DNA of 64,000 nucleotides, from assembly GCF_964194155.1 (NCBI RefSeq), contig NC_135890.1, positions 17,918,001 through 17,982,000 on the forward strand. Reading direction: 5' to 3'. The stretch comes from Cetorhinus maximus. Its lineage: Eukaryota. Below the pieces are notes generated by a model. It worked only from the letters and a program-made list of their open reading frames with translations. It was not told the DNA's origin and did not search any database. The position numbers and the translations under genes were made by a program. Below, one piece after another: positions 15,557 through 28,009 of this stretch (positions are counted from its first letter, which is position 1; every line of letters starts with the position of its first letter).

Positions 15557-15621
15557 ATGAGAACACTTCTGATTTTCTTGGCTCTGCTGGTGGCCGTTTA
15601 TGCTCAGAGAGGTTTCGAGGG
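15557..15621 (+). CDS. CPA2: CPA exon 1 (signal peptide)
   Basis: caccATG; [22 protein letters not shown]; donor gtgagt. Confidence 0.92.
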
Positions 15622-18600
15622 GTGAGTTGCAGTCTTGTAGCCAGGTTCCTCAATGTTATTATTCCAATCAGACACAAGGGTGGTAGGCCTTTACAAGGAC
15701 CTCTTGGTTTGGAATCTGAGTTTGGAATCAGAAAGTTCCCAGGTTCAATCCTTGCCATTTGTTGAGTTTGCTGATGCATAATGGAGGGGTTGTGACTGTT
15801 GATCTCTGTGGCCCTGAGCTCAGAATTGGGGTGGGGAAGGGGAAACTCACCCAGGCATCCTCCATCTAAAAGATGTGTGTGCGTGTGAAGAGAATTAGGT
15901 TTGGTTGTGACGTCTCTCTTGCCAAAATAGCCAGCCAACACTAATGGCCGAGATTCCCACATGGATCAACTAGATGAGATGTTCTCATCCAAACCTTGGA
16001 GAGTAAATGGGAAAGAGTTGCTCTTTTGATGGCTACTCATAAGCTTGTGGTGTGCTAACGCACCCCTGATTAGTACCAAAGTGGTTGCACCATTGGTGCC
16101 AAGGATAAACATACTGAGAGTAATCAAGTGTTCTGTTCAATTCCAGAGTGTTGGCTGTGATATAGTTGCTGATGTTTAAGGAGCAGCACTGTTAGTGACT
16201 GAACTAGAAAGCTTCACTAATCCATAGCAAATCAAACCTTGACCTGGAACCTAATAGAGACTAAAGATGGAGAAATGAGTGATGCAGTGATTAGTATGCT
16301 GAACTTACACCTTCGCTATCTAAGTTCAAACATTGTCCAAAGTGATGGGGTGAAGATCGCATCTGGCTCCCTCCTCTAGCGGTTGCCTACAAAATGACTG
16401 GGAAAGTCTTTACTCCAATTCCTCATGGGTGAGGACCAACAAGGCAACTCAGTCCACAAGTTGGCACTGAATTGGCAATCAAGGAAACTGGGTACGGAAA
16501 GTGGAGAATTGTCATCTTAGGGTAGTTGTGAGTGCCCCTCTCAGGATGGGTCTGAGGCTCATGGCTGGGGCTGAGTAGAGAGAGCTGTGTAGTGATCATC
16601 TGACCATTTTGTAACTGAGCCTATCAAGTTGGGGGGGATCAGCAAATTAAAGCCCTGGAAGGTCAGAAGGAAGAGACGACTTTGGGCTGTAACAAAGACC
16701 ACTGGGAATGCTGCTGGGTGCTCCCATGGAGTCCCCGAAATATCTGCAAGGATTAGAGCTTCATCTACTGGATGGTTCTGAATTGTAGCCAGGCTTTTCT
16801 GAGTGTCAGTTTTCAATTTAAGAATATGGATGGCAACGGTCTGAAGATTTTCCTGCAAATGCACCGATTGCCTGAAACAATGTCACTTATTTAATGGTGA
16901 CTGGTCGTCTCTGGTCTCCTGACTATCTGCTCCTACACCCCTTCCATTTCACATCTCTTCTCACATAGTGATAACATCTGCAAGACTTCACACCTGACCT
17001 CATACTTCTTGCAATTACTGCAGAATTAGTCTTTCATCTCAGTGATCCTGGGATTTAAACCCACCCTTTGTAATAACCATATGCTAAAGGACTGATCCTT
17101 GGGTTTACACCTGGTCCCTTGTTAAATAATCACTAAAGGACCAAAGCTGTGGTTTACGCCCCGATCTCTTGTATTAACTTTACATTTAAAGACTGATCCT
17201 GGGATTCACACTTCATCCCTAGTATTAATCTTACACTAAACGTGCCCCCACTGTAAAGACTCTCTTAAGGAATGACCTGGGAACCATGAAACCAGACCTT
17301 AATAGGAGTTAGCTCTTTGAAAGCATGCAGGAGGGACAGAAGGGAGAAATAAATAATTGCTAAAATATATTTTATATATATGGTGGATCATCCTCCGCTA
17401 TTTCCGCCAACTCCAGCATGATGCCACCACCAAACACATCTTCCCTTCACCCCCCCGCCCCCGGCGGCATTCCGCAGGGATCGTTCCCTCTGGGACACCC
17501 TGGTCTACTCCTCCATCACCCCCTACACCTCAACCCCCTCCCACGGCACCTTCCCATGCAACCGCAGAAGGTGCAACACCTGCCCCTTTACTTCCACTCT
17601 CCTCACCGTCCAAGGGCCCAAACACTCCTTTCAAATGAAGCAACATTTCACTTGCACTTCCCTCAATTTAGTCTACTGCATTCATTGCTCCCAATGCGGT
17701 TTCCTCTACATTGGAGAGACCAAACGCAGACTGGGTGACCGCTTTGCAGAACATCTTCGGTCTGTCTGCAAGCATTACCCAGACTTCCCTATTGCTTGCC
17801 ATTTCAACACACCACCCTGCTCTCATGCCCACATGTCCGTCCTTGGCCTGCTGCAATGTTCCAGTGAAGCTCAACGCAAACTGGAGGAACAGCACCTCAT
17901 CTTCCTACGGCACTTTACAGCCTTCCGGACTGAATATTGAGTTCAACAATTTTAGATCATGAATTCTCTCCTCCATCCCCACCCCCTTTCCGATCCCCCT
18001 CTTTTCTTTTCCAATAATTTATATAGATTTTTCTTTTCCCAGCTATTTCCATTATTTTTAAATGTATTTCCTTTCCATTGTTTTATCTCTATCTTTTAGC
18101 CTTTTTTGATTCCTTCACCCCACCTCACCCCCACTAGGGCTATCTGTACCTTGCTTGTCCTGCTTTCTACCCTTAATTATCACATTCCTTAGATAATATC
18201 ACCACCTTCAACACCTCTTTGTCCTTTTGTCTGTGACATCTTTTGGTTATCTCCACCTATCACTGGCCCTCTATCCAGCTCTACCTGTCCCACCCACCCT
18301 TAAACCAGCTTATATTTCACCTCTCTTCTATTTTTACTTAGTTCTGTTGAAGGGTCATTCAGACTCGAAACGTTAACTGTGTTCCTCTCCGCAGATGCTG
18401 CCAGACCTGCTGAGTTTTTCCAGGTATTTTTGTTTTTGTTTTGTGCTAAAATATATTTGTTCACTTTGGTTGTTCTCCAAAGCTGTGATGCATTCCGCAG
18501 ATCAAAACGATCCCAGAAGTTCTCTCATAGCTTCACAAAGTATCTTTCAACATCTCTTTTCTCATGAGGTACCTGTGCTATATCAACTCAGGGGCAAACT

Positions 18601-21600
18601 CTCACCTCAGAAGGTCATGGGTCCAAGTCCCACTTCAGCGATTCGAGCACAAAATCTAGGCTGATACTTCAGAGCAGAACTGAGGGAGCACAGCACTGTC
18701 AGAGATGCCATCTTGACGTTAAACCGAAGCCCTGACTGCCCTCTCAGGTGAAGGTAAAAAAATACCGCAGCACTGCTGGAAGAACAGGGGGTATCTCACC
18801 ATTGCCCTGAGGCAATCTTTATCTCTCAGCCAACTTTATTACAACAGATTATCTGGTCATTTAACTCATTGCTATTTGTGGAGCCTTGCTCTGTGCAAAT
18901 TGACTGCATTTTGCTACATTTCAACAGTGACTATATCTTAAAGTACCTTGTTATGGGACATACTGGGATCATGAAAGGGTGCTATAAATACGCAAGTTCT
19001 TTTCTTTCTTAATAATTAATCAAAGGCCCAAAAATGAAATACTGGCACTGATACCTGCCCTCTTTGTAGGGATCAGGTCCTCCGGATAACGCCAAGAGAT
19101 GAAGAACAGGCGAGCCTAGTGATGTCCTTGGAGGATCAGGAGCATCTCCAGGTGAGTCAAACTGTAAATCGGCACCTTTCACCATAAGCTATAGAGGGAG
19201 CTACAAACACATGAACTCTTCATCAGTGGCCAGCCCATGGCATTGCTGAAAGATAGACTAAAGTCTACATCATCATTCCAATGTTTCAGTGTTAATCTGT
19301 CCTGCTCCTTTAAGACTGCCATTCAAACTGGCCTCATCAGGTTTTGACGCTACTTATAAACTGTTGGGACCAGAGATTAGTTCCAACAGGTTGTAAATGT
19401 CAGGCTCTAAGTCAAAAAATGACTTTCTCCCCCTTTTTTAAATTTCCTTTGCCCGTGTAGCGAAACAACAACTTATATTTATATACCGCTCTTAACGTGA
19501 TGAAATATCCTAAGGCTTCACAGATGCATTATCAAACAAAATGTGACACTGAGCCAAATAAGGAGATATTGGGTCAGATGACCAAAAGTTTGGTCAAAGA
19601 GGAAGTTTTTAAGGAGTGTCTTAAAGGAGGAAAGTGAGGTGAAGAGGTGTAAGGAGGGAATTCCTGAGCTTAGGGTCTAGGCAGCTGAAGGCACGACCAC
19701 CATTGCTGGAGCAAAAGAGACCAGAATTAGAGGGGTACAGATATCTCAGAGGATTGTGGGGCTGGAGGAGATTACAGGGGTAGAGTGGGCAAGGGCATGG
19801 AGGGATTTGAAAACAAGGTATGACTCTGGTGTGTGATGGGGATGATCAGTAACTGATCGATTTTCCTTCCTGTTATATTTCCTGTCACTGAAGTAGAATA
19901 AAGCTGGGTTCAGATGACTTACAGTGTGAAAACTCTTACGGTAAATTCAGCAGCTTATCATTGGGATCTGGCCAACCAATTACACACGGTGACTAGCAAC
20001 ATTGTGTGGAAACATCTGTTTTTTGAACAAAACCTTGCTTCAGATGCCGTATATTGCTGTACACTAGTCAACAAGTCGTTGCCAGGAAATGTAGCCTATA
20101 TTATATAATGTTCTGCAAATATATATTCTATATGTTAAACATAACCACAATTGTCCTCTCCCTCTCTCTCCAGCTTGATATATGGCACAGTCCCATGAAG
20201 TCTGACCTCATTATAGATATCCATGTTCCGGAGAACAGCCTTCAGTCTTTCAAAGTGTTTCTGGAGCACAATGGTATTCAGTACTCAGCGATGATTGAAG
20301 ACTTGCAGGTATGACACTAAACCACATTAAGCCAAATAGAGGGGCTACAATTGGGCTCAGTTTCCTGGGTCAGAGAGGGAGATATTTGACCAGGTTTCCC
20401 ATTCTTAATTTTATTCCAGTGGCCCCTGCTGTACATGTCTGTGACTGGGCTGTGTGGAAGCCTATGCAAGTGTCTGTGTATATGAGCTATGTGTGAGGGC
20501 CTATGTGTGAGTAGAGATATGTGTAAGTATATGCAAATATGTGTCAGTGGCATGTGTGTGACTGCATGTACTTGGTTGTGAGTGTAGACTGTTTGCAGGG
20601 GGGTGGTGGTGGTGTGTGTGTGTGTGTCTAGTGGATGTGACCATGTGCATGAGGTTATGCAAATGGGGGAGTGCATAGTGTTCTGTGTTCATGTGGGGGG
20701 TAGGTACATGTGAGTAGCGGTGGGTGTTTGGAGGTTTTTGGGGTATGTGTATTTGTGAACAGGTTTGTGTGTGTTTACATTTGTATGAAGTGGGTATGTG
20801 ACTTTGTAGTGGTGTGCGTGTGTGGAATGTGTGTTTGGGTGTGTATGAAGTATAAGTATATGTGCATAAGTATATGTGAGTAGAGCTGTGTGTTTGGGGG
20901 CACATGGGGTGTGTATATATGTGAACAGTGGTGTGTAGGGTGTGTGTGTGTCTGGAAGGATGTATGAAATGTCAGATAAGAACAATATTAGATGAGAACA
21001 GCTGGCCCGTCATGTCTGCAGCATTGGATAACCTGCTGAGCTAGAGATGAAGGAAGAAAATAGGTGGGAGAGAAAATGACTATTAGTGATACTGGTCTTC
21101 CCAACCAACATCACTAAAACAGATTATCTGGTCATTTACCTCATTGTTGGATGTGGGACCTTGCTGTGTGCAAACAGACTGCTGTATTTCTCTGCATTAC
21201 AACATTGACAACACTTGAAAAGTATTTTTGGGAAGCACTTAGGGATGTGCTGAGGGTGTGATACGTTCTGTATAAAGCCACATCTTACCTTTAGGTGCTG
21301 ATTGACGATGAGAAAGCTGAGCTGGAGCAGATGACCATGATGGAACATACCGCTTCCTCCTTCAGCTATGGCAAATACCACACTCTGGACGAGGTACACA
21401 CTCAGGGGTTTTACTGGGAAGGAGCTGCATCACATTTGTCTGCTGTGCTCTGACAACACAGTGACTGAGGGGGGGGTCTTGGGGGGGTGGGGGGGGGAGG
21501 GGGGTGATGTGGGGGGAGTGGTCAGAGGTAAAGTTGGGCACCAGCCAGCTCCTGATGCTCTTGGTCACTGCGTGCAGGTCTTGCAGATACAGTCGATGAA

Positions 21601-24600
21601 AGCATGAGGGAGGGTGGGACAGGGACAAGGAGAAGGGCAGGACAGTGCCCTCTAAGGCTCCTTTCATCTACAGACCTTTCACTGACTCTCCACTACAGGA
21701 ATACTTCCAGGAACACTCCAGACAATCTCATTTACACATCCCCAGCCACTTACTTTAGTTATTATGAAAGATCTGAATTGTCATTTACTAGTTAGATTGG
21801 TTAGTTAGTATGACCAGGGCTAGCTAGATTAGTTGGTGCAAATAGCCAAAGCTGGAGTGTTTTCAATCGCCGTCTTTCTTTCACGTGTTCCTTCCTCTCC
21901 TGTTCCTCTACACAGAAGTGCTAGTCTGCAATGTTTTGATTTATCTTTAACATTTGCGCCAGGTTTATAGTTGGATGGACAGTCTTGCTATTGAGTATCC
22001 AGGACTGGTAGAGAAGCAACAGATTGGGACATCGTTCGAAGGCCGCCCGCTCTATGTGTTAAAGGTATGGAAATGATTTGAAAGTAACTGGGGACTAATT
22101 ACACACTGGCCTCCCACCACCAGGTTCTCCACATCCAGCCAGGAGTGAGGGGTTGAACGTTGAATTTTTCTTCTTGCTGCCAACTGTTGGGGTTATTGGG
22201 CAGTTCCAACCCAGCCAGGGGGCTTGGGCCCAGTTATCATGTGGAGCCACTGGCATGATCATCAACCTAGGCCCAACTCTGGGCCTGTGCTCTAGGACCC
22301 AGCTTAACCAGAGAAGTCCCCAAGACCCGAATGTCCAACCAAGATTGTTCAGTTCTCACTGAAACAAGAAGAATTACTCTCCCTTTGGTGGGATTTAATC
22401 CAACACCAAGGCAGATAAAGCAATTTGAGCGAGTCAGACATGGACTGTAGGGTTGCCAACTCTAGTTGGACAAATTCCTGTAGATTTTACCAGTTCACCC
22501 AGGCAGACTACCTTTTTTAAATCCTTCACCGATGTTGTGTGTGGCACAATGGGAACCTGTTGGTAAATCCACTATGAAGGGCATGTTTCCATGAGGACAA
22601 AATTTCCTTGTTAGCGTTTGGGATATAAACTGTTGCTTGGGTGCAGTTTGGGGAAATTTGACTGGGGAGGATCATGAGCCTGTGACAGAGCCTGCCTCTG
22701 ATATTTGATCCATTTGAGTGGACAGGCAGACTGTATTATGGGCTGTGCTCTCAGTTTCCTCTCTGCTCCCCCAGACGACGCTTTAAGCCTGCCAAGTTCT
22801 AAGGGGGGAAATCTGCCCCCCCTCACTGCAGGGCCGTGTTCCTCCTTGTAACCATATCCTATTCACTTTGACAGTTCAGCACCGGTGGAACCAGACGCCC
22901 GGCGATCTGGATTGACAGTGGGATCCATGCCCGTGAGTGGGTCTCTCCTGCCAGTGCAATCTGGATGGCGAAGAAGGTAAACCAACCCATAATCAGTGGA
23001 GTTGTCAGGCGTGGTTAACACCCATGGCATCATAGATCAAACTGAGCCACACAGAGCAGGAAAGGTCTGGGGTCCCATTCCTGCTTTGTGCTCTGTTAGC
23101 TGACTTCAGTGCTTGGAGGCGATGGGGGGGTGGTGGGAGGGGAGGATGGGAGGAGGAAGGAGGGTTGGCCTCAGGACCCTGTGGAAGGGAGAGAAGCAGG
23201 GGAGCAATAGAGTCAGCATCAGCACCCTGGGGTTTGAGGATGGACAGAATTGTGAGGTTTTGTGTGACAGATGGAGATTGACTGACCCTGGTGGCTGGGT
23301 AGCTGTTTCCCCGCTCTCTGTTTATCTGTTTCTTGTTGCATCCCATTCACTGTCTCTCTTTATCTGTTTTTTCCCGTCTCACTTTCTTTCTCTTCATTTT
23401 ACTCTGTCTCACTTACTCTACTTCTTTATTTGTGCCTTGTTCTGTCTCACTCTCTTCTACCTTACTCTCTGTCTCACTTGCTATCGATCTAGCTATCTGT
23501 GACTTGTTCTATCTCACTATCTCTCTCTCTCTACGTTTTATCTACTTCACTCTATCTCCCTCTATCGGTTTCGCTCACTTGGTCTGTTTTTCTCTTCTCT
23601 CACTTGCTCTTTTTTCTCTTTGTTTGTCCCCACTATCAAGAGACAGATGAGGTTGTCGAGCATTTGCACTGTGCTGGATGGCACTGTGGGTTTTTTGCTT
23701 ATATTTGTTCATGGGGTGTGGGTGTCGCTAGCTAGGCCAGCATTTATTGCCCATCCCTAATTGCCCCTGAGAAGATGGTGGCGAGCTGCCTTCTTGAACC
23801 GCTGCAGTCCAGGTTCCTTGGGGTGTATGGTAACTGAGGTTTGCACACCTGGAATGCACCAAGTTTGATCCTTGAGCGATGTATGGCTGCTAATCTTTGT
23901 CGAAATTCAACCCAGTCCCAAATAACACTGAGGAAAAGAGCAGGGATCAAGCACAATTTGTTATATCACAAATTCTCTCTTTCAGATCTGCACTGACTAT
24001 GGCCAGGAACCTTTCATCACATCACTGCTGAGGAAAATGGACATCTATATGGAAATTGTGGTGAACCCAGATGGTTATGTTTATACCCACACCAAGGTCA
24101 GTACCCCAAGGGTTTCCAGCTTGACCGAACCACTCCGACATCTTCAAAATCTTGGGTTAGGCTCTGTCAATATTCACCACAAACGCTTAGCAGCTTCCGT
24201 TGGTCCCTTATGTGAAGGAATACAATCTTCATATGACTGAGCGATATGTTACGCTGTCAGTAATTACAGGTGATCTGGTCACTTATCACGCCACTGTTTG
24301 TGGGAGCTTGCTGTGCACGAATTGGCTGCTGCGTTTCCCTTATATTATAACCATCTTTTAAGAAAGTAACTTCATTGGTTGTAAAGTGGTTTGGGATGTC
24401 CTCAGGTCATGAAAGGCGCTACATAAATTGAAGTGCCTTCTATTTCTCCTGACCTCATGAAGATGCTGTAGTCGTTGCGCTCATGAGGATGCTGTAACAA
24501 CAACTTATATTTATATGACATTTTTAATGTGATAAGATGTCCCAAGGCACTTCATAGGAGCATTACAAAACAGAATATGACACGCATACTGAAGGAGATA

Positions 24601-27600
24601 TTAGATCACATGACCAAAAGCTTGGTCAAAGATCTTAAAGGAAGAAAGAAAGGTGGAAGTGGTATAGGGAGGGTATTCCAGAGCTGTGGGCCGAGGCAGC
24701 TGAAGGCATGGCCACCTATAGAGGATTGATTAAAACCAGGGATGCTCAAGATGCCAGAATTAGAGGAACGCAGATATCTTGGAGCGTTGTGGAGCTGGAG
24801 GAGATGACAGAGAAAGCAAGGGGCAAGGTCATGGAGCGATTTGAAAACATGGATGAGAATTTGAAAATTAAGATGTTGCTTGACCAGGAGCCAACATAGG
24901 TCAGCGAGCACAGGAGTGATAGGGGGACGGGACTGAGTGCGAGTTAAGACACAGGCAGCAGAGTTTTCGATAACTTCGAGTTTACGAAGGGTAGAATGTG
25001 GGAGACTAGCCAGGAGTGCATTGGAATAGTTGAGTCTGGTGTAATGCTGGTGTTCTGATAACATGACCTTTTTCTAGAACCGTATGTGGCGTAAGACCAG
25101 GTCCACAGCCCCTGGAAGGAAATGTGTCGGGGTCGATGCCAACAGGAACTTTGATGCTGGGTTTGGAGGTGCGTGAGATGATTTTGTTTTCTTCCTCCTT
25201 TAGCTCCATAAGAATATATGACCCTTAAGGCGCGTCCTGATGTCATCAGTTAGTGAATGCCAGAGAGCTATTTGACCACTGTAGGCATCACCACTGTGTC
25301 TAGTCTTGCCTTCACCTGACGCCTACACACAGACACCATACAATGGTTGGAGGAGGGGTGGGCTGAGGGAAACATGGTTTTCACTGGATAAGTCACCAGA
25401 AGTCAGAATCCTAGCTGAATATGGAATATGGAGACTGAGATCAGGTTAACTGAAGGCAGACAAATGGGTTCCAAAAGTTCATGTCAGGACTGTGGCTGGA
25501 AGTAAGAGAGTGCAGACTTCAGGTAGGGACAGGATCAAACTTGGTTTTGATGCCCCTGTTGTTGAATAGCTGGTCATTGCCCTTTGGGCAAGATAGTGGC
25601 ATGCACCAGTTCCTGGGAATTAGCAGCAGAGGAGGAAGAGGTGAGATGGGCTGAGAGCAATACAGAGGGACTAAGGTGTTTGTGTAAAGATTAATGACAG
25701 CTGCTGCCCATGTGACAGGTCCTGGAACCAGTAACAATCCATGCATGGAGACGTACCGTGGGCCCCACCCCAACTCTGAACCCGAGGTCGCGGCCATCGT
25801 GAACTTTGTGCGGAGACACAGAAACATCAAGAGCTTCATCACCATTCACAGTTACTCACAGCTCCTCATGTTCCCTTTTGGGTACAAGTGTGTGCACCCT
25901 GCTAATTACCAGGAGCTGGTAGGTCAAACCTTCTTTACAATCTTTATTGTCCACTTTTCTACATCACCCCCACCCCGCTGCCTCTTCCTCCATCTCCTAT
26001 GAATATTCCCCCATTTCTTGAGCAGGCTGGACCCATTGATGAGGTGAGGGGACTGTTTCACTGAAGCTGTGTCCCCTCCATTAACTCCTCCAAATGGCCA
26101 GTCTAATCAACGTCACCAGCAGGCCCAGTGCTGTCCTGGTCCCTGGCCTGCACTCCCATTAGGATGAGATGTTGAGGCCTTCCCTTCCCTCCCAGATGGA
26201 TGTAAAATATTCAGTGGTGGTCTTTGAAGGAGAGTGACGAATTCTTTTGGTTATTACAACAGTGACTGCACTTCATAAAGTACTTCATTGACTGTAAAAT
26301 GCTTAGGGATGCCCTGCAATCATGAAAAGTGCTAAATGAATTGAATTCTTTATTTTCTCTTTTGCACTTTGCTTTTTTTGCACTTTAGTAACTGGGGCTA
26401 TTTATACATAACCCACCTGCAAGATATTAAAAGGCCAGATAGAACCCATGATACAGTGGACTGTTTATGGGTCATGGGAGGAGTTTTGGCAGCACATTGG
26501 TTATGTTATTGGACTAGTAATCAGAATTCAATAAATCTGGAATAAAATAAAAAGCTAGTATCAGTAATGGTGACCATAAGACTACTAGATTGTTGTAAAA
26601 AACCCATCTGGCTCACTAGTATCCTTCAGGAAAGGAAATCTGCTGGCCAATTGTGGCTTCAGGCCCACAGCAATGTGGCTGATTCTTAACTACATTCTGA
26701 AATGACCTAGCATGCCACTCAGTTGTAATAGGGATGGGCAATAAATGCTGGCCTTGCCAGTGACACCCACATCCTGTGAATGATTAATAATAAAAATACT
26801 TCCCATTATAGAGGGGATAGCGATTAATGGTTGGGTAGATGACGCAGGGGCTAAGTGACCTTTTCTAGTTCTGCTCTCATTTTCCATGATCAGTGCTCCA
26901 GACTGGACCATGGGAAGGTGATTGGTGAAGTGTGCTGATTCTGTTTTCTCTCTGCAGGAGGCACTTGCTAAATCCGCTGTCAGCTCTTTAACCTCACTGT
27001 ACGGAACACGGTATAAGATCGGGTCTATCTGTGATGCAATCTGTAAGTACAATAACCGCGCCCAGTAACAGTTACATAGATGGGGCAAAAGCTGTCTTTT
27101 AGGGTCATCCTTGGCTGAATCTATAGCACTCTTTCCCCTGAGTCAGAAAGTCCCAGTCCAAGGTTCAAGTCCCAGGAAACTGAGCAGATAGTCCAGGCTG
27201 ACCCTCCAGTGCAGTGCTGAAGGAGTGCTGCAGTGTGGGAGGTGCCACCTTTCAGATAAGGCCCTGCATGCCCCATCAGGTGGAAGTTAAAAGATGTCAT
27301 AGCCCTATTTTCAAGAAATCTAGGGTACTCTCCCTGCTGTCCTGGCCAATATGTATCCCTCAACCAACAACACGAAAACAGATTATCTGCTTGTTCATCA
27401 TTGCTGTTTGTGGGAGCTGGCCATGGACAAATTGGCTGCCGCATTTCCTACATTACAACAGGTACTACACTTCAAAAGTCACTTAATTGGCTGTAAAATG
27501 CTTTGCGATGTCCTGAGGTTGTGAAAGGTGCTATATAAATGCAAATCTTTCTTTTGAATGAGGAAATGATAAGCTGTGATGACAAAACACTCTTAAGGCT

Positions 27601-27808
27601 TACGCTCTCCTTTTCCATTTCAGACCAGGCCAGCGGAGGCAGCATTGACTGGACATACAACGAGGGCATCAAGTACTCCTTTGCCTTTGAACTCCGTGAC
27701 ACCGGTCGCTATGGTTTCATGCTGCCATCCAGGCAGATTCTCCCAACTGCTGAGGAGACTTGGCTGGCGATGAGGACAATCATGGAGTACGTTAGCGACC
27801 GCTCATGA
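15557..27808 (+). CDS. CPA2: Procarboxypeptidase A2-like (M14A metallocarboxypeptidase), complete, 11 exons, 418 aa
   Basis: Exons 15557-15621, 19070-19151, 20174-20308, 21295-21393, 21963-22064, 22875-22976, 23986-24096, 25078-25168, 25719-25918, 26958-27042, 27624-27808 total 1257 nt in frame. Signal peptide and propeptide present. Zn ligands HARE and HSY, plus R127, N144-R145, Y248, I255 and E270 (bovine CPA numbering). A268 and the C210/C244 pair are CPA2-type. Orthology is inferred, not tree-tested. Confidence 0.9.
17040..17240. repeat. Degenerate minisatellite, about 50-bp unit, about 4 copies
   Basis: Recurring (aaag)gactgatcctggg.tt.acacc...ttgta.taa. Confidence 0.65.
17373..18443 (+). 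mobile_element. 5'-truncated Penelope-like retroelement (GIY-YIG endonuclease remnant plus pseudo-LTR)
   Basis: ORF 17635-17940 [40 protein letters not shown] is a PLE GIY-YIG motif. Perfect 15-bp TSD TGCTAAAATATATTT at 17358-17372 and 18444-18458. Confidence 0.9.
18339..18379 (+). ncRNA. Minimal hammerhead-like motif (CUGUUGA variant)
   Basis: tagtt-CTGTTGA-a-GGGTC(attca)GACTC-GAAAC-GTT-aactg. Confidence 0.55.
18595..19010 (+). mobile_element. Deu-type SINE copy
   Basis: Same family. Further partial copies at about 5560-5880, 21100-21290, 24270-24440, 26170-26345, 28510-28850, 41400-41575 and 43905-44130. Confidence 0.8.
19070..19151 (+). CDS. CPA2: CPA exon 2 (propeptide)
   Basis: [27 protein letters not shown]. 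Confidence 0.92.
20174..20308 (+). CDS. CPA2: CPA exon 3 (propeptide)
   Basis: [45 protein letters not shown]. Confidence 0.93.
20435..20950. repeat. TG-rich low-complexity tract
   Basis: Imperfect (TG)n. Confidence 0.75.
21295..21393 (+). CDS. CPA2: CPA exon 4 (activation linker and mature N-terminus)
   Basis: [33 protein letters not shown]. Confidence 0.92.
21963..22064 (+). CDS. CPA2: CPA exon 5
   Basis: [34 protein letters not shown]. Confidence 0.94.
22875..22976 (+). CDS. CPA2: CPA exon 6 (Zn-binding HxxE)
   Basis: [34 protein letters not shown]. Confidence 0.95.
23310..23630. repeat. TC-rich low-complexity tract
   Basis: Imperfect (TC/TCTA)n. Confidence 0.7.
23986..24096 (+). CDS. 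CPA2: CPA exon 7
   Basis: [37 protein letters not shown]. Confidence 0.95.
24497..25045 (-). mobile_element. L2-clade LINE 3' fragment
   Basis: [44 protein letters not shown]. Similar copies at about 7790-8290 (+), 10180-10450 (-), 19465-19820 (-), 45100-45530 (-) and 55090-55330 (+). Confidence 0.85.
25078..25168 (+). CDS. CPA2: CPA exon 8
   Basis: [30 protein letters not shown]. Confidence 0.95.
25719..25918 (+). CDS. CPA2: CPA exon 9
   Basis: [67 protein letters not shown]. Confidence 0.95.
26487..26795 (+). mobile_element. SINE-like element with the CR1 family A 3' tail
   Basis: Unique body, then gggatgggcaataaatgctggccttgccagtgacacccacatcctgtgaatga, near-identical to the CR1-A tail. 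Confidence 0.65.
26958..27042 (+). CDS. CPA2: CPA exon 10
   Basis: [28 protein letters not shown](Y). Confidence 0.94.
27125..27555 (+). mobile_element. tRNA-derived Deu-type SINE (SacSINE1-like)
   Basis: Head with B-box-like ggttcaagtccc, conserved core (ctggccaatat.tatccctcaacc..cagattatctg), and tail gaaaggtgctatataaatgcaa shared with L2. Confidence 0.8.
27624..27808 (+). CDS. CPA2: CPA exon 11
   Basis: [60 protein letters not shown]. Confidence 0.95.
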
Positions 27809-28003: not shown

Positions 28004-28009
28004 AATAAA
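28004..28009 (+). terminator. Polyadenylation signal of the CPA gene
   Basis: First AATAAA, about 200 nt after the stop codon. Confidence 0.7.

What the first reader, a model, noticed from the sequence alone, without database searches (positions are those of the whole stretch)
21295..21393. Procarboxypeptidase A without the tryptic activation site
Seen: exon 4 reads [33 protein letters not shown]. Established: pancreatic proCPA1 and proCPA2 are activated by trypsin at an Arg in this linker (recalled human CPA1 SLLDEEQEQMFAFRSR/ARSTDTFNYATYHTLEE). Ungapped, the three Arg align with Thr, Met (the P1 position) and His, and the only nearby basic residue is a Lys in the connecting helix. The reading frame and catalytic residues are intact. 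Inference: the zymogen may be activated by a chymotrypsin- or elastase-type protease (M-T-M-M), or outside the trypsin cascade.
Basis: partly seen in the sequence, partly recalled or inferred. Interest (0 to 1): 0.7.

Follow-up and report, generated by a model that had tools for sequence, protein, structure and literature searches.

The report
Shark carboxypeptidase lacking its trypsin site
This intact shark gene for a digestive pro-enzyme has lost, by one base change, the only linker arginine where trypsin would likely cut it, as have a sawshark and four stingrays and mantas independently, so another gut protease likely switches it on.

Summary
21295-21393 is exon 4 of an intact 11-exon procarboxypeptidase A gene, identical to a RefSeq basking shark protein, with all catalytic residues and CPA2-type marks. 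The linker loop has no Arg or Lys. Met at the classical P1 (-1) is ancestral (19 of 21 cartilaginous fish species), and these orthologues usually keep an Arg at mature position 2 (15 of 21), the layout of human proCPA4. The basking shark reads CAT (His) there, where related sharks read CGT. The same Arg is lost independently in a sawshark (His) and in four stingrays and mantas (Leu): 6 of 21 species, three origins, against 1 of 115 bony-vertebrate sequences with no basic residue from -5 to +6. A separate paralogue keeps its tryptic linker (13 of 13 species). Most likely a chymotrypsin- or elastase-type enzyme makes the first cut at Met109/Met110, which is still downstream of trypsin. Rivals: trypsin at helix Lys101, or tolerated loss covered by the paralogue. 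Activation and expression were not tested, and only one individual was seen. New variant of a known kind.

The parts
15557..15621 (+). Exon 1 coding part (ATG, signal peptide), 65 bp
   Evidence: exact match to P0003 residues 1-21, ends at GT
19070..19151 (+). Exon 2 (pro-domain), 82 bp
20174..20308 (+). Exon 3 (pro-domain), 135 bp
21295..21393 (+). Exon 4: connecting helix, activation linker and start of the mature enzyme (residues 95-127)
21313..21315 (+). Lys101 (position -10), inside the predicted connecting helix 93-107; K or R in 21 of 21 orthologues; candidate tryptic site of the rival explanation
21337..21342 (+). Met109-Met110 (positions -2, -1) in the predicted loop; candidate chymotrypsin- or elastase-type sites (inferred)
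21346..21348 (+). His112 codon CAT (mature position 2); Arg in 15 of 21 orthologues; CGT in contigs of runs X5, X6, X13 of two other organisms
21361..21363 (+). Phe117 (mature Phe7), invariant in 21 of 21; further candidate chymotryptic site (inferred)
21963..22064 (+). Exon 5, 102 bp
22875..22976 (+). Exon 6, 102 bp (His69, Glu72 zinc ligands)
23986..24096 (+). Exon 7, 111 bp
25078..25168 (+). Exon 8, 91 bp (Arg127, Asn144, Arg145)
25719..25918 (+). Exon 9, 200 bp (His196, Cys210)
26958..27042 (+). Exon 10, 85 bp (Cys244)
27624..27808 (+). Exon 11 coding part to TGA, 185 bp (Ile255, Ala268, Glu270); AATAAA follows at 28004

Best explanation
The gene encodes an intact CPA2-type procarboxypeptidase whose linker loop has no Arg or Lys after a CGT-to-CAT change at the Arg usually kept in this gene's linker, so a chymotrypsin- or elastase-type gut protease likely makes the first activating cut, probably after Met109 or Met110. 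Shown: sequence, intact frame, catalytic residues, codon difference, and losses of the same Arg in a sawshark and in stingrays and mantas. Predicted: the helix ends at Met107 and residues 108-113 form a loop. Inferred: Arg2 was the tryptic site in the ancestor; the Met pair offered a second, non-tryptic site that made Arg2 dispensable; trimming of the helix (Leu or Met at 96 in 21 of 21) would then release the pro-domain; activation would remain indirectly trypsin-dependent, one tier lower in the cascade.
For: No K/R between Lys101 and Lys121. In five of the six Arg-less species the next basic residue after the helix is mature position 35, so Lys121 is no general substitute. Three separate losses on the tree, each with an Arg-bearing neighbour where resolved: Cetorhinus with Carcharodon (SH-aLRT 99), four myliobatiform rays (100) with Pristis (85), and Pristiophorus in an open fork. 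All six keep every catalytic and zinc residue, and their end branches are short (0.011 for Cetorhinus). Met at -1 in 19 of 21 and Met/Leu at -2 in 19 of 21, including all six Arg-less species. The model puts 108-113 outside the helix, at pLDDT about 58 for block 101-110. Chymotrypsin C cleaves leucyl, methionyl and phenylalanyl bonds (PMC8398347 passage) and already completes activation of human proCPA1 and proCPA2 (PMC9779553 passage). Catshark pancreas transcribes chymotrypsinogen, Ctrl and elastases (PMC4362833 passage).
Against: No biochemical test. In humans trypsin initiates activation and chymotrypsin C only completes it. Conservation of the Met is weak evidence, since 42 of 70 pro-domain columns are at least 90% conserved in this set. 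Lys101 is K or R in 21 of 21, leaving trypsin a possible site. The Arg codon is CGT in relatives, a CpG that mutates readily, so recurrence can come from drift. The His was seen in one sample only. Expression of this gene in basking shark pancreas is not shown. Arg2 is kept in 15 of 21 here against 13 of 13 in paralogue A, but the difference is not significant (Fisher p = 0.06) and species are not independent.
Confidence: 0.5

Rival explanations
1. Trypsin still activates it, by cutting after Lys101 in the connecting helix. One cut would sever the pro-domain and shorten the helix, making Arg2 redundant.
For: Position -10 is Lys in 19 and Arg in 2 of 21 orthologues, including all six Arg-less species, against K/R in 57 of 115 bony-vertebrate sequences.
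Against: It lies mid-helix in the model (helix 93-107) and among acidic residues (D-D-E-K-A-E), which slow trypsin (established knowledge). Several neighbouring helix positions are equally invariant (Leu93, Gln94, Glu100, Glu105), so a structural role explains it as well.
Confidence: 0.2
2. Tolerated loss: the proenzyme is now activated slowly or partly, or works through residual zymogen activity, and the trypsin-activated paralogue A supplies most carboxypeptidase A activity.
For: The same genome holds paralogue A with intact catalytic residues and a linker with Arg, Lys and Arg; its orthologues keep Lys(-1) and Arg2 in sawshark, Hypanus and Mobula. The change is a one-step CpG transition. 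Residual activity of proCPA2 and of dogfish proCPA is recalled, not read.
Against: No sign of decay: frame, splice sites and all 23 key residues checked are kept in the six Arg-less species, and four ray species share the loss with intact genes. Paralogue A lacks the CPA2-type pocket marks (Ser210, Phe244, Cys268), so it may not be equivalent.
Confidence: 0.18
3. In the basking shark the His is a segregating allele of the sequenced individual, not a species trait; the species may still carry the Arg.
For: All runs that cover the codon (X1, X2, X3) are one sample; the other-sample run X21 has no depth on the exon.
Against: The assembly and three separately assembled runs all read CAT, which fits homozygosity. 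It would not explain the sawshark or the four rays.
Confidence: 0.07
4. The gene acts outside the pancreas or gut lumen, like CPA4 or mast-cell CPA3, and is processed by a tissue protease.
For: It lies about 575 kb from the other two CPA genes, and the usual single-Arg2 linker resembles human proCPA4. No PTF1-like motif was found by my simple patterns in 700 bp upstream.
Against: It has CPA2-type residues, and catshark pancreas expresses transcripts annotated as CPA1 and CPA2 (which gene is not known). The promoter scan was crude.
Confidence: 0.05

Closest known systems
Human procarboxypeptidase A2 (PDB 1AYE, 1DTD)
   Same: 59% identity in the structural alignment, TM 0.82; Cys210 and Cys244, Met203, Gly253-Ser254-Ile255 and Ala268 align.
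   Different: The human linker carries Arg-Arg-Arg-Glu-Arg; the shark loop has no basic residue.
Human procarboxypeptidase A4 (PDB 2BOA, mature 2BO9)
   Same: Its linker has a single Arg at mature position 2, and the 2BO9 chain starts just after it: the layout of most shark orthologues.
   Different: That Arg is His here. CPA4 lacks Cys210 and has Thr268; 52% identity. The 4A94 chain is listed from two residues earlier.
Human and porcine procarboxypeptidase A1 (PDB 5OM9, 1PCA); bovine beta-CPA (1CPX)
   Same: Best sequence and fold matches (58-60% identity, TM 0.83-0.84); ungapped linker register; the beta form begins at residue 3, after Arg2.
   Different: These have Arg at -1 and at 2 and lack the Cys210/Cys244 pair.
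Cartilaginous-fish orthologues (P0127, P0128, P0014, P0140-P0142 and others)
   Same: 71-96% identity, one clade (SH-aLRT 99), Met-Glu at -1/+1 in 19 of 21.
   Different: 15 of 21 keep Arg2; the sawshark has His and four myliobatiform rays have Leu.

Membership tests
M14A procarboxypeptidase A | Propep_M14 plus Peptidase_M14 domains | tested here: met
   PF02244 73.6 bits, PF00246 360.6 bits, both above cut-off
M14A procarboxypeptidase A | Zinc ligands His69, Glu72, His196; catalytic and binding residues Arg127, Asn144, Arg145, Tyr248, Glu270 | tested here: met
   (numbering from established knowledge, register)
M14A procarboxypeptidase A | Hydrophobic residue 255 (A-type pocket, not Asp as in CPB) | tested here: met
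   Ile255
M14A procarboxypeptidase A | Zymogen fold | tested here: met
   model pLDDT 76; best matches 1PCA, 5OM9, 1AYE, 2BOA, TM 0.82-0.84
CPA2 subtype | Cys210/Cys244 pair and Ala268 | tested here: met
   aligned to 1AYE and 1DTD; Cys pair in 21 of 21, Ala268 in 20 of 21 orthologues; that these define CPA2 is recalled
CPA2 subtype | One-to-one orthology with bony-vertebrate CPA2 | tested here: inconclusive
   quick unrooted tree: joins CPA2 and paralogues A and B in a 38-row group (97) that is open inside; no mammalian CPA2/CPA4 or CPB outgroup included; synteny not tested
Trypsin-activated pancreatic zymogen | Arg or Lys in the exposed linker loop | tested here: not met
   none from 102 to 120
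Trypsin-activated pancreatic zymogen | Activation by trypsin | not testable with these tools
   needs recombinant protein
Trypsin-activated pancreatic zymogen | Pancreatic expression | not testable with these tools
   no RNA run was available to lay

The most novel reading that the evidence does not exclude
The CPA2-type zymogen of cartilaginous fish has shifted from trypsin to a chymotrypsin- or elastase-type primary activator at a conserved Met-Met-Glu site, and three lineages have since discarded the tryptic Arg: natural vertebrate procarboxypeptidases A that trypsin cannot switch on directly, with the white shark orthologue (96% identical, Arg kept) as a ready control.
Probability: 0.4. 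Interest if true: 0.52.

Novelty: new variant of a known kind. Interest (0 to 1): 0.36.

Why it matters
Trypsin is held to start the activation of pancreatic procarboxypeptidases, with chymotrypsin C only completing it (PMC9779553 passage). A natural, intact proCPA with no tryptic residue in its linker, arising three times, would show that this step can be rewired. The basking and white shark proteins have the same exon 4 sequence but for this one residue, so the question is directly testable. The scope is narrow: one enzyme, a known family, with an ordinary paralogue beside it.

Tried and rejected
Assembly error: rejected as far as testable; three runs of one sample read CAT. Mis-called exon: rejected; AG/GT borders, phase and the RefSeq model agree. 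Pseudogene: rejected; open frame and key residues kept. Filter-feeding convergence (basking shark and mantas): rejected; the whale shark keeps Arg, while a sawshark and two stingrays lost it (diets recalled). Lys121 as general substitute: rejected; absent from five of the six Arg-less species. Second CPA copy in the window: none found by tblastn. Expression: no RNA holder listed; X21 had no depth on the exon and X4 laid nothing. Three unnamed skate-like fragments of 202-206 aa on contigs under 1 kb (P0134-P0136) span several exons and look like spliced transcripts of the orthologue, but do not cover the linker. Promoter motif scan was uninformative. Window ORFs were listed but not annotated, so synteny is untested. 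Papers not held: Szmola 2011 on chymotrypsin C co-activation, Witt 2013 on CPA1 variants (21, 25), PMC5016165, PMC3573857. Two supplements of PMC4362833 held no match. Earlier findings: none by sequence or words. Rows dropped from counts: 8 of 123 bony-vertebrate proteins could not be anchored; isoforms, duplicates, unnamed and mis-spliced cartilaginous-fish rows were left out so that each of 21 species counts once.

Full report
What is there. Coding exons run 65, 82, 135, 99, 102, 102, 111, 91, 200, 85 and 185 bp from 15557 to 27808. Exons 2-11 give a 396-residue open frame contained exactly in P0003, a 418-aa RefSeq protein labelled carboxypeptidase A1-like of Cetorhinus maximus. It has both Pfam domains, folds like proCPA1, A2 and A4 (TM 0.82-0.84), and keeps His69, Glu72, His196, Arg127, Asn144, Arg145, Tyr248 and Glu270. 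Cys210, Cys244 and Ala268 match human CPA2 rather than CPA1. The tree does not settle orthology: it is a quick, unrooted tree, and the group joining this clade to CPA2 is open inside.

The linker. The model has a helix at 93-107 with 108-113 outside it, at modest confidence. No Lys or Arg lies between Lys101 and Lys121.

Which site was lost. Among 21 cartilaginous-fish species, one row each, position -1 is Met in 19, Lys in 1 and Val in 1; position +1 is Glu in all; position 2 is Arg in 15, His in 2 and Leu in 4. The Met-rich linker is therefore ancestral, and the tryptic residue this gene normally keeps is Arg2. Human proCPA4 has the same single-Arg layout, and the mature chain in 2BO9 starts directly after that Arg (the 4A94 chain is listed from two residues earlier). 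Bovine beta-CPA is deposited as residues 3-307 (1CPX). A cut after Arg2 thus yields known mature forms; that trypsin makes this cut in sharks is inferred. In 18 of 115 bony-vertebrate sequences Arg2 is likewise the only basic residue from -4 to +6.

The change. The window has CAT at 21346-21348. Contigs of runs X5, X6 and X13, from two other organisms, read G at 21347, giving CGT: one transition at a CpG. Runs X1, X2 and X3 agree with the window and X4 laid nothing; these are one sample, possibly the assembly's source. No second individual covers the exon.

How common. No K/R from -8 to +6 in 6 of 21 cartilaginous-fish species: Cetorhinus, Pristiophorus, two Mobula, Hypanus and Hemitrygon. The tree places these as three origins. 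Among bony vertebrates 1 of 115 anchored sequences (a tortoise; 8 of 123 not anchored) lacks K/R from -5 to +6; with the narrower window -4 to +6 it is 7 of 115, five of them sea turtles. That sample is the top hits of three searches, rich in birds, turtles and fishes, and not a census.

Paralogues. The genome has two more CPA genes on the same contig, about 575-680 kb away. Paralogue A has a conventional linker; Arg2 is present in 13 of 13 species seen, including sawshark, Hypanus and Mobula (Callorhinchus read by eye). The contrast with 15 of 21 gives p = 0.06 and ignores relatedness. Paralogue B keeps a linker Arg but has Ser for Tyr248.

How it most likely works. The six Arg-less proteins are otherwise intact, so the enzyme is probably still used. 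All six keep Met at -1, Met or Leu at -2 and Phe7. Chymotrypsin C cleaves after Leu, Met and Phe (PMC8398347, passage) and completes activation of human proCPA1 and A2 after trypsin (PMC9779553, passages; PMC12987931, passages). Catshark pancreas transcribes chymotrypsinogen, Ctrl and elastases (PMC4362833, passages). I put 0.5 on a chymotrypsin- or elastase-type first cut in the loop, which would still sit downstream of trypsin. Trypsin at Lys101 gets 0.2: that residue is K or R in 21 of 21, but it is mid-helix, among acids, and 42 of 70 pro-domain columns are about as conserved. Tolerated loss covered by paralogue A gets 0.18, a private allele 0.07, and a non-pancreatic role 0.05. None of these was tested by experiment.

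Literature. Ten full-text searches, seen as listings, showed no paper on an Arg-less shark proCPA; the shark-specific ones returned only PMC4362833. The library lacks most subscription papers. The 1970 dogfish proCPA paper was seen only as a reference entry, and Szmola 2011 was not held, so prior biochemical data on shark proCPA activation may exist unseen. Two supplements of PMC4362833 were searched without a hit.

Verdict. A real feature of an ordinary enzyme family. New variant of a known kind; interest 0.36.

Noticed in passing
G000:C12 about 17318436-17358750 (+), loci L008, L007, L002, L001, L003: Paralogue B: open frame and zinc ligands intact, but Tyr248 is Ser, Gln200-region reads HSYLQR, the linker is one residue shorter, and its branch is long (0.69). 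Possibly a low-activity or altered-specificity CPA.
   Followed up: partly
G000:C12 about 17226797-17252999 (-), loci L004-L006: Paralogue A: conventional tryptic linker; Cys at 268 and Asn in place of the usual Asp before the HxxE motif.
   Followed up: partly
P0047, P0074, P0089, P0091, P0109, P0116: Turtle CPA1-like proteins have Met at -1 and Gln for Arg2 in five sea turtles and one tortoise; the tortoise protein P0116 has no K/R from -10 to +6, a parallel case outside fishes.
   Followed up: partly
P0129, P0133: Stegostoma has Lys at -1 (a second tryptic site) and Amblyraja has Val, so Met(-1) is not strictly required where Arg2 is kept.
   Followed up: no
P0012, P0139: Heptranchias has two listed proteins of this gene on one contig length; P0012 has Val253 and Thr268 instead of Gly and Ala, suggesting a narrower pocket.
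   Followed up: no
window 21265: Contig of run X2 reads A where the window and X1 read G, an apparent heterozygous intronic site in the same sample.
   Followed up: no
window 21100-21235 and 21457-21524: High-copy repeat fragment and a G-rich simple repeat flank exon 4.
   Followed up: no
G000:C20:81949531-82021448, C16:22064638, C4:79640762, C11:9242908: Six further M14A-type exon matches (42-52% identity), three clustered on C20; not annotated here.
   Followed up: no
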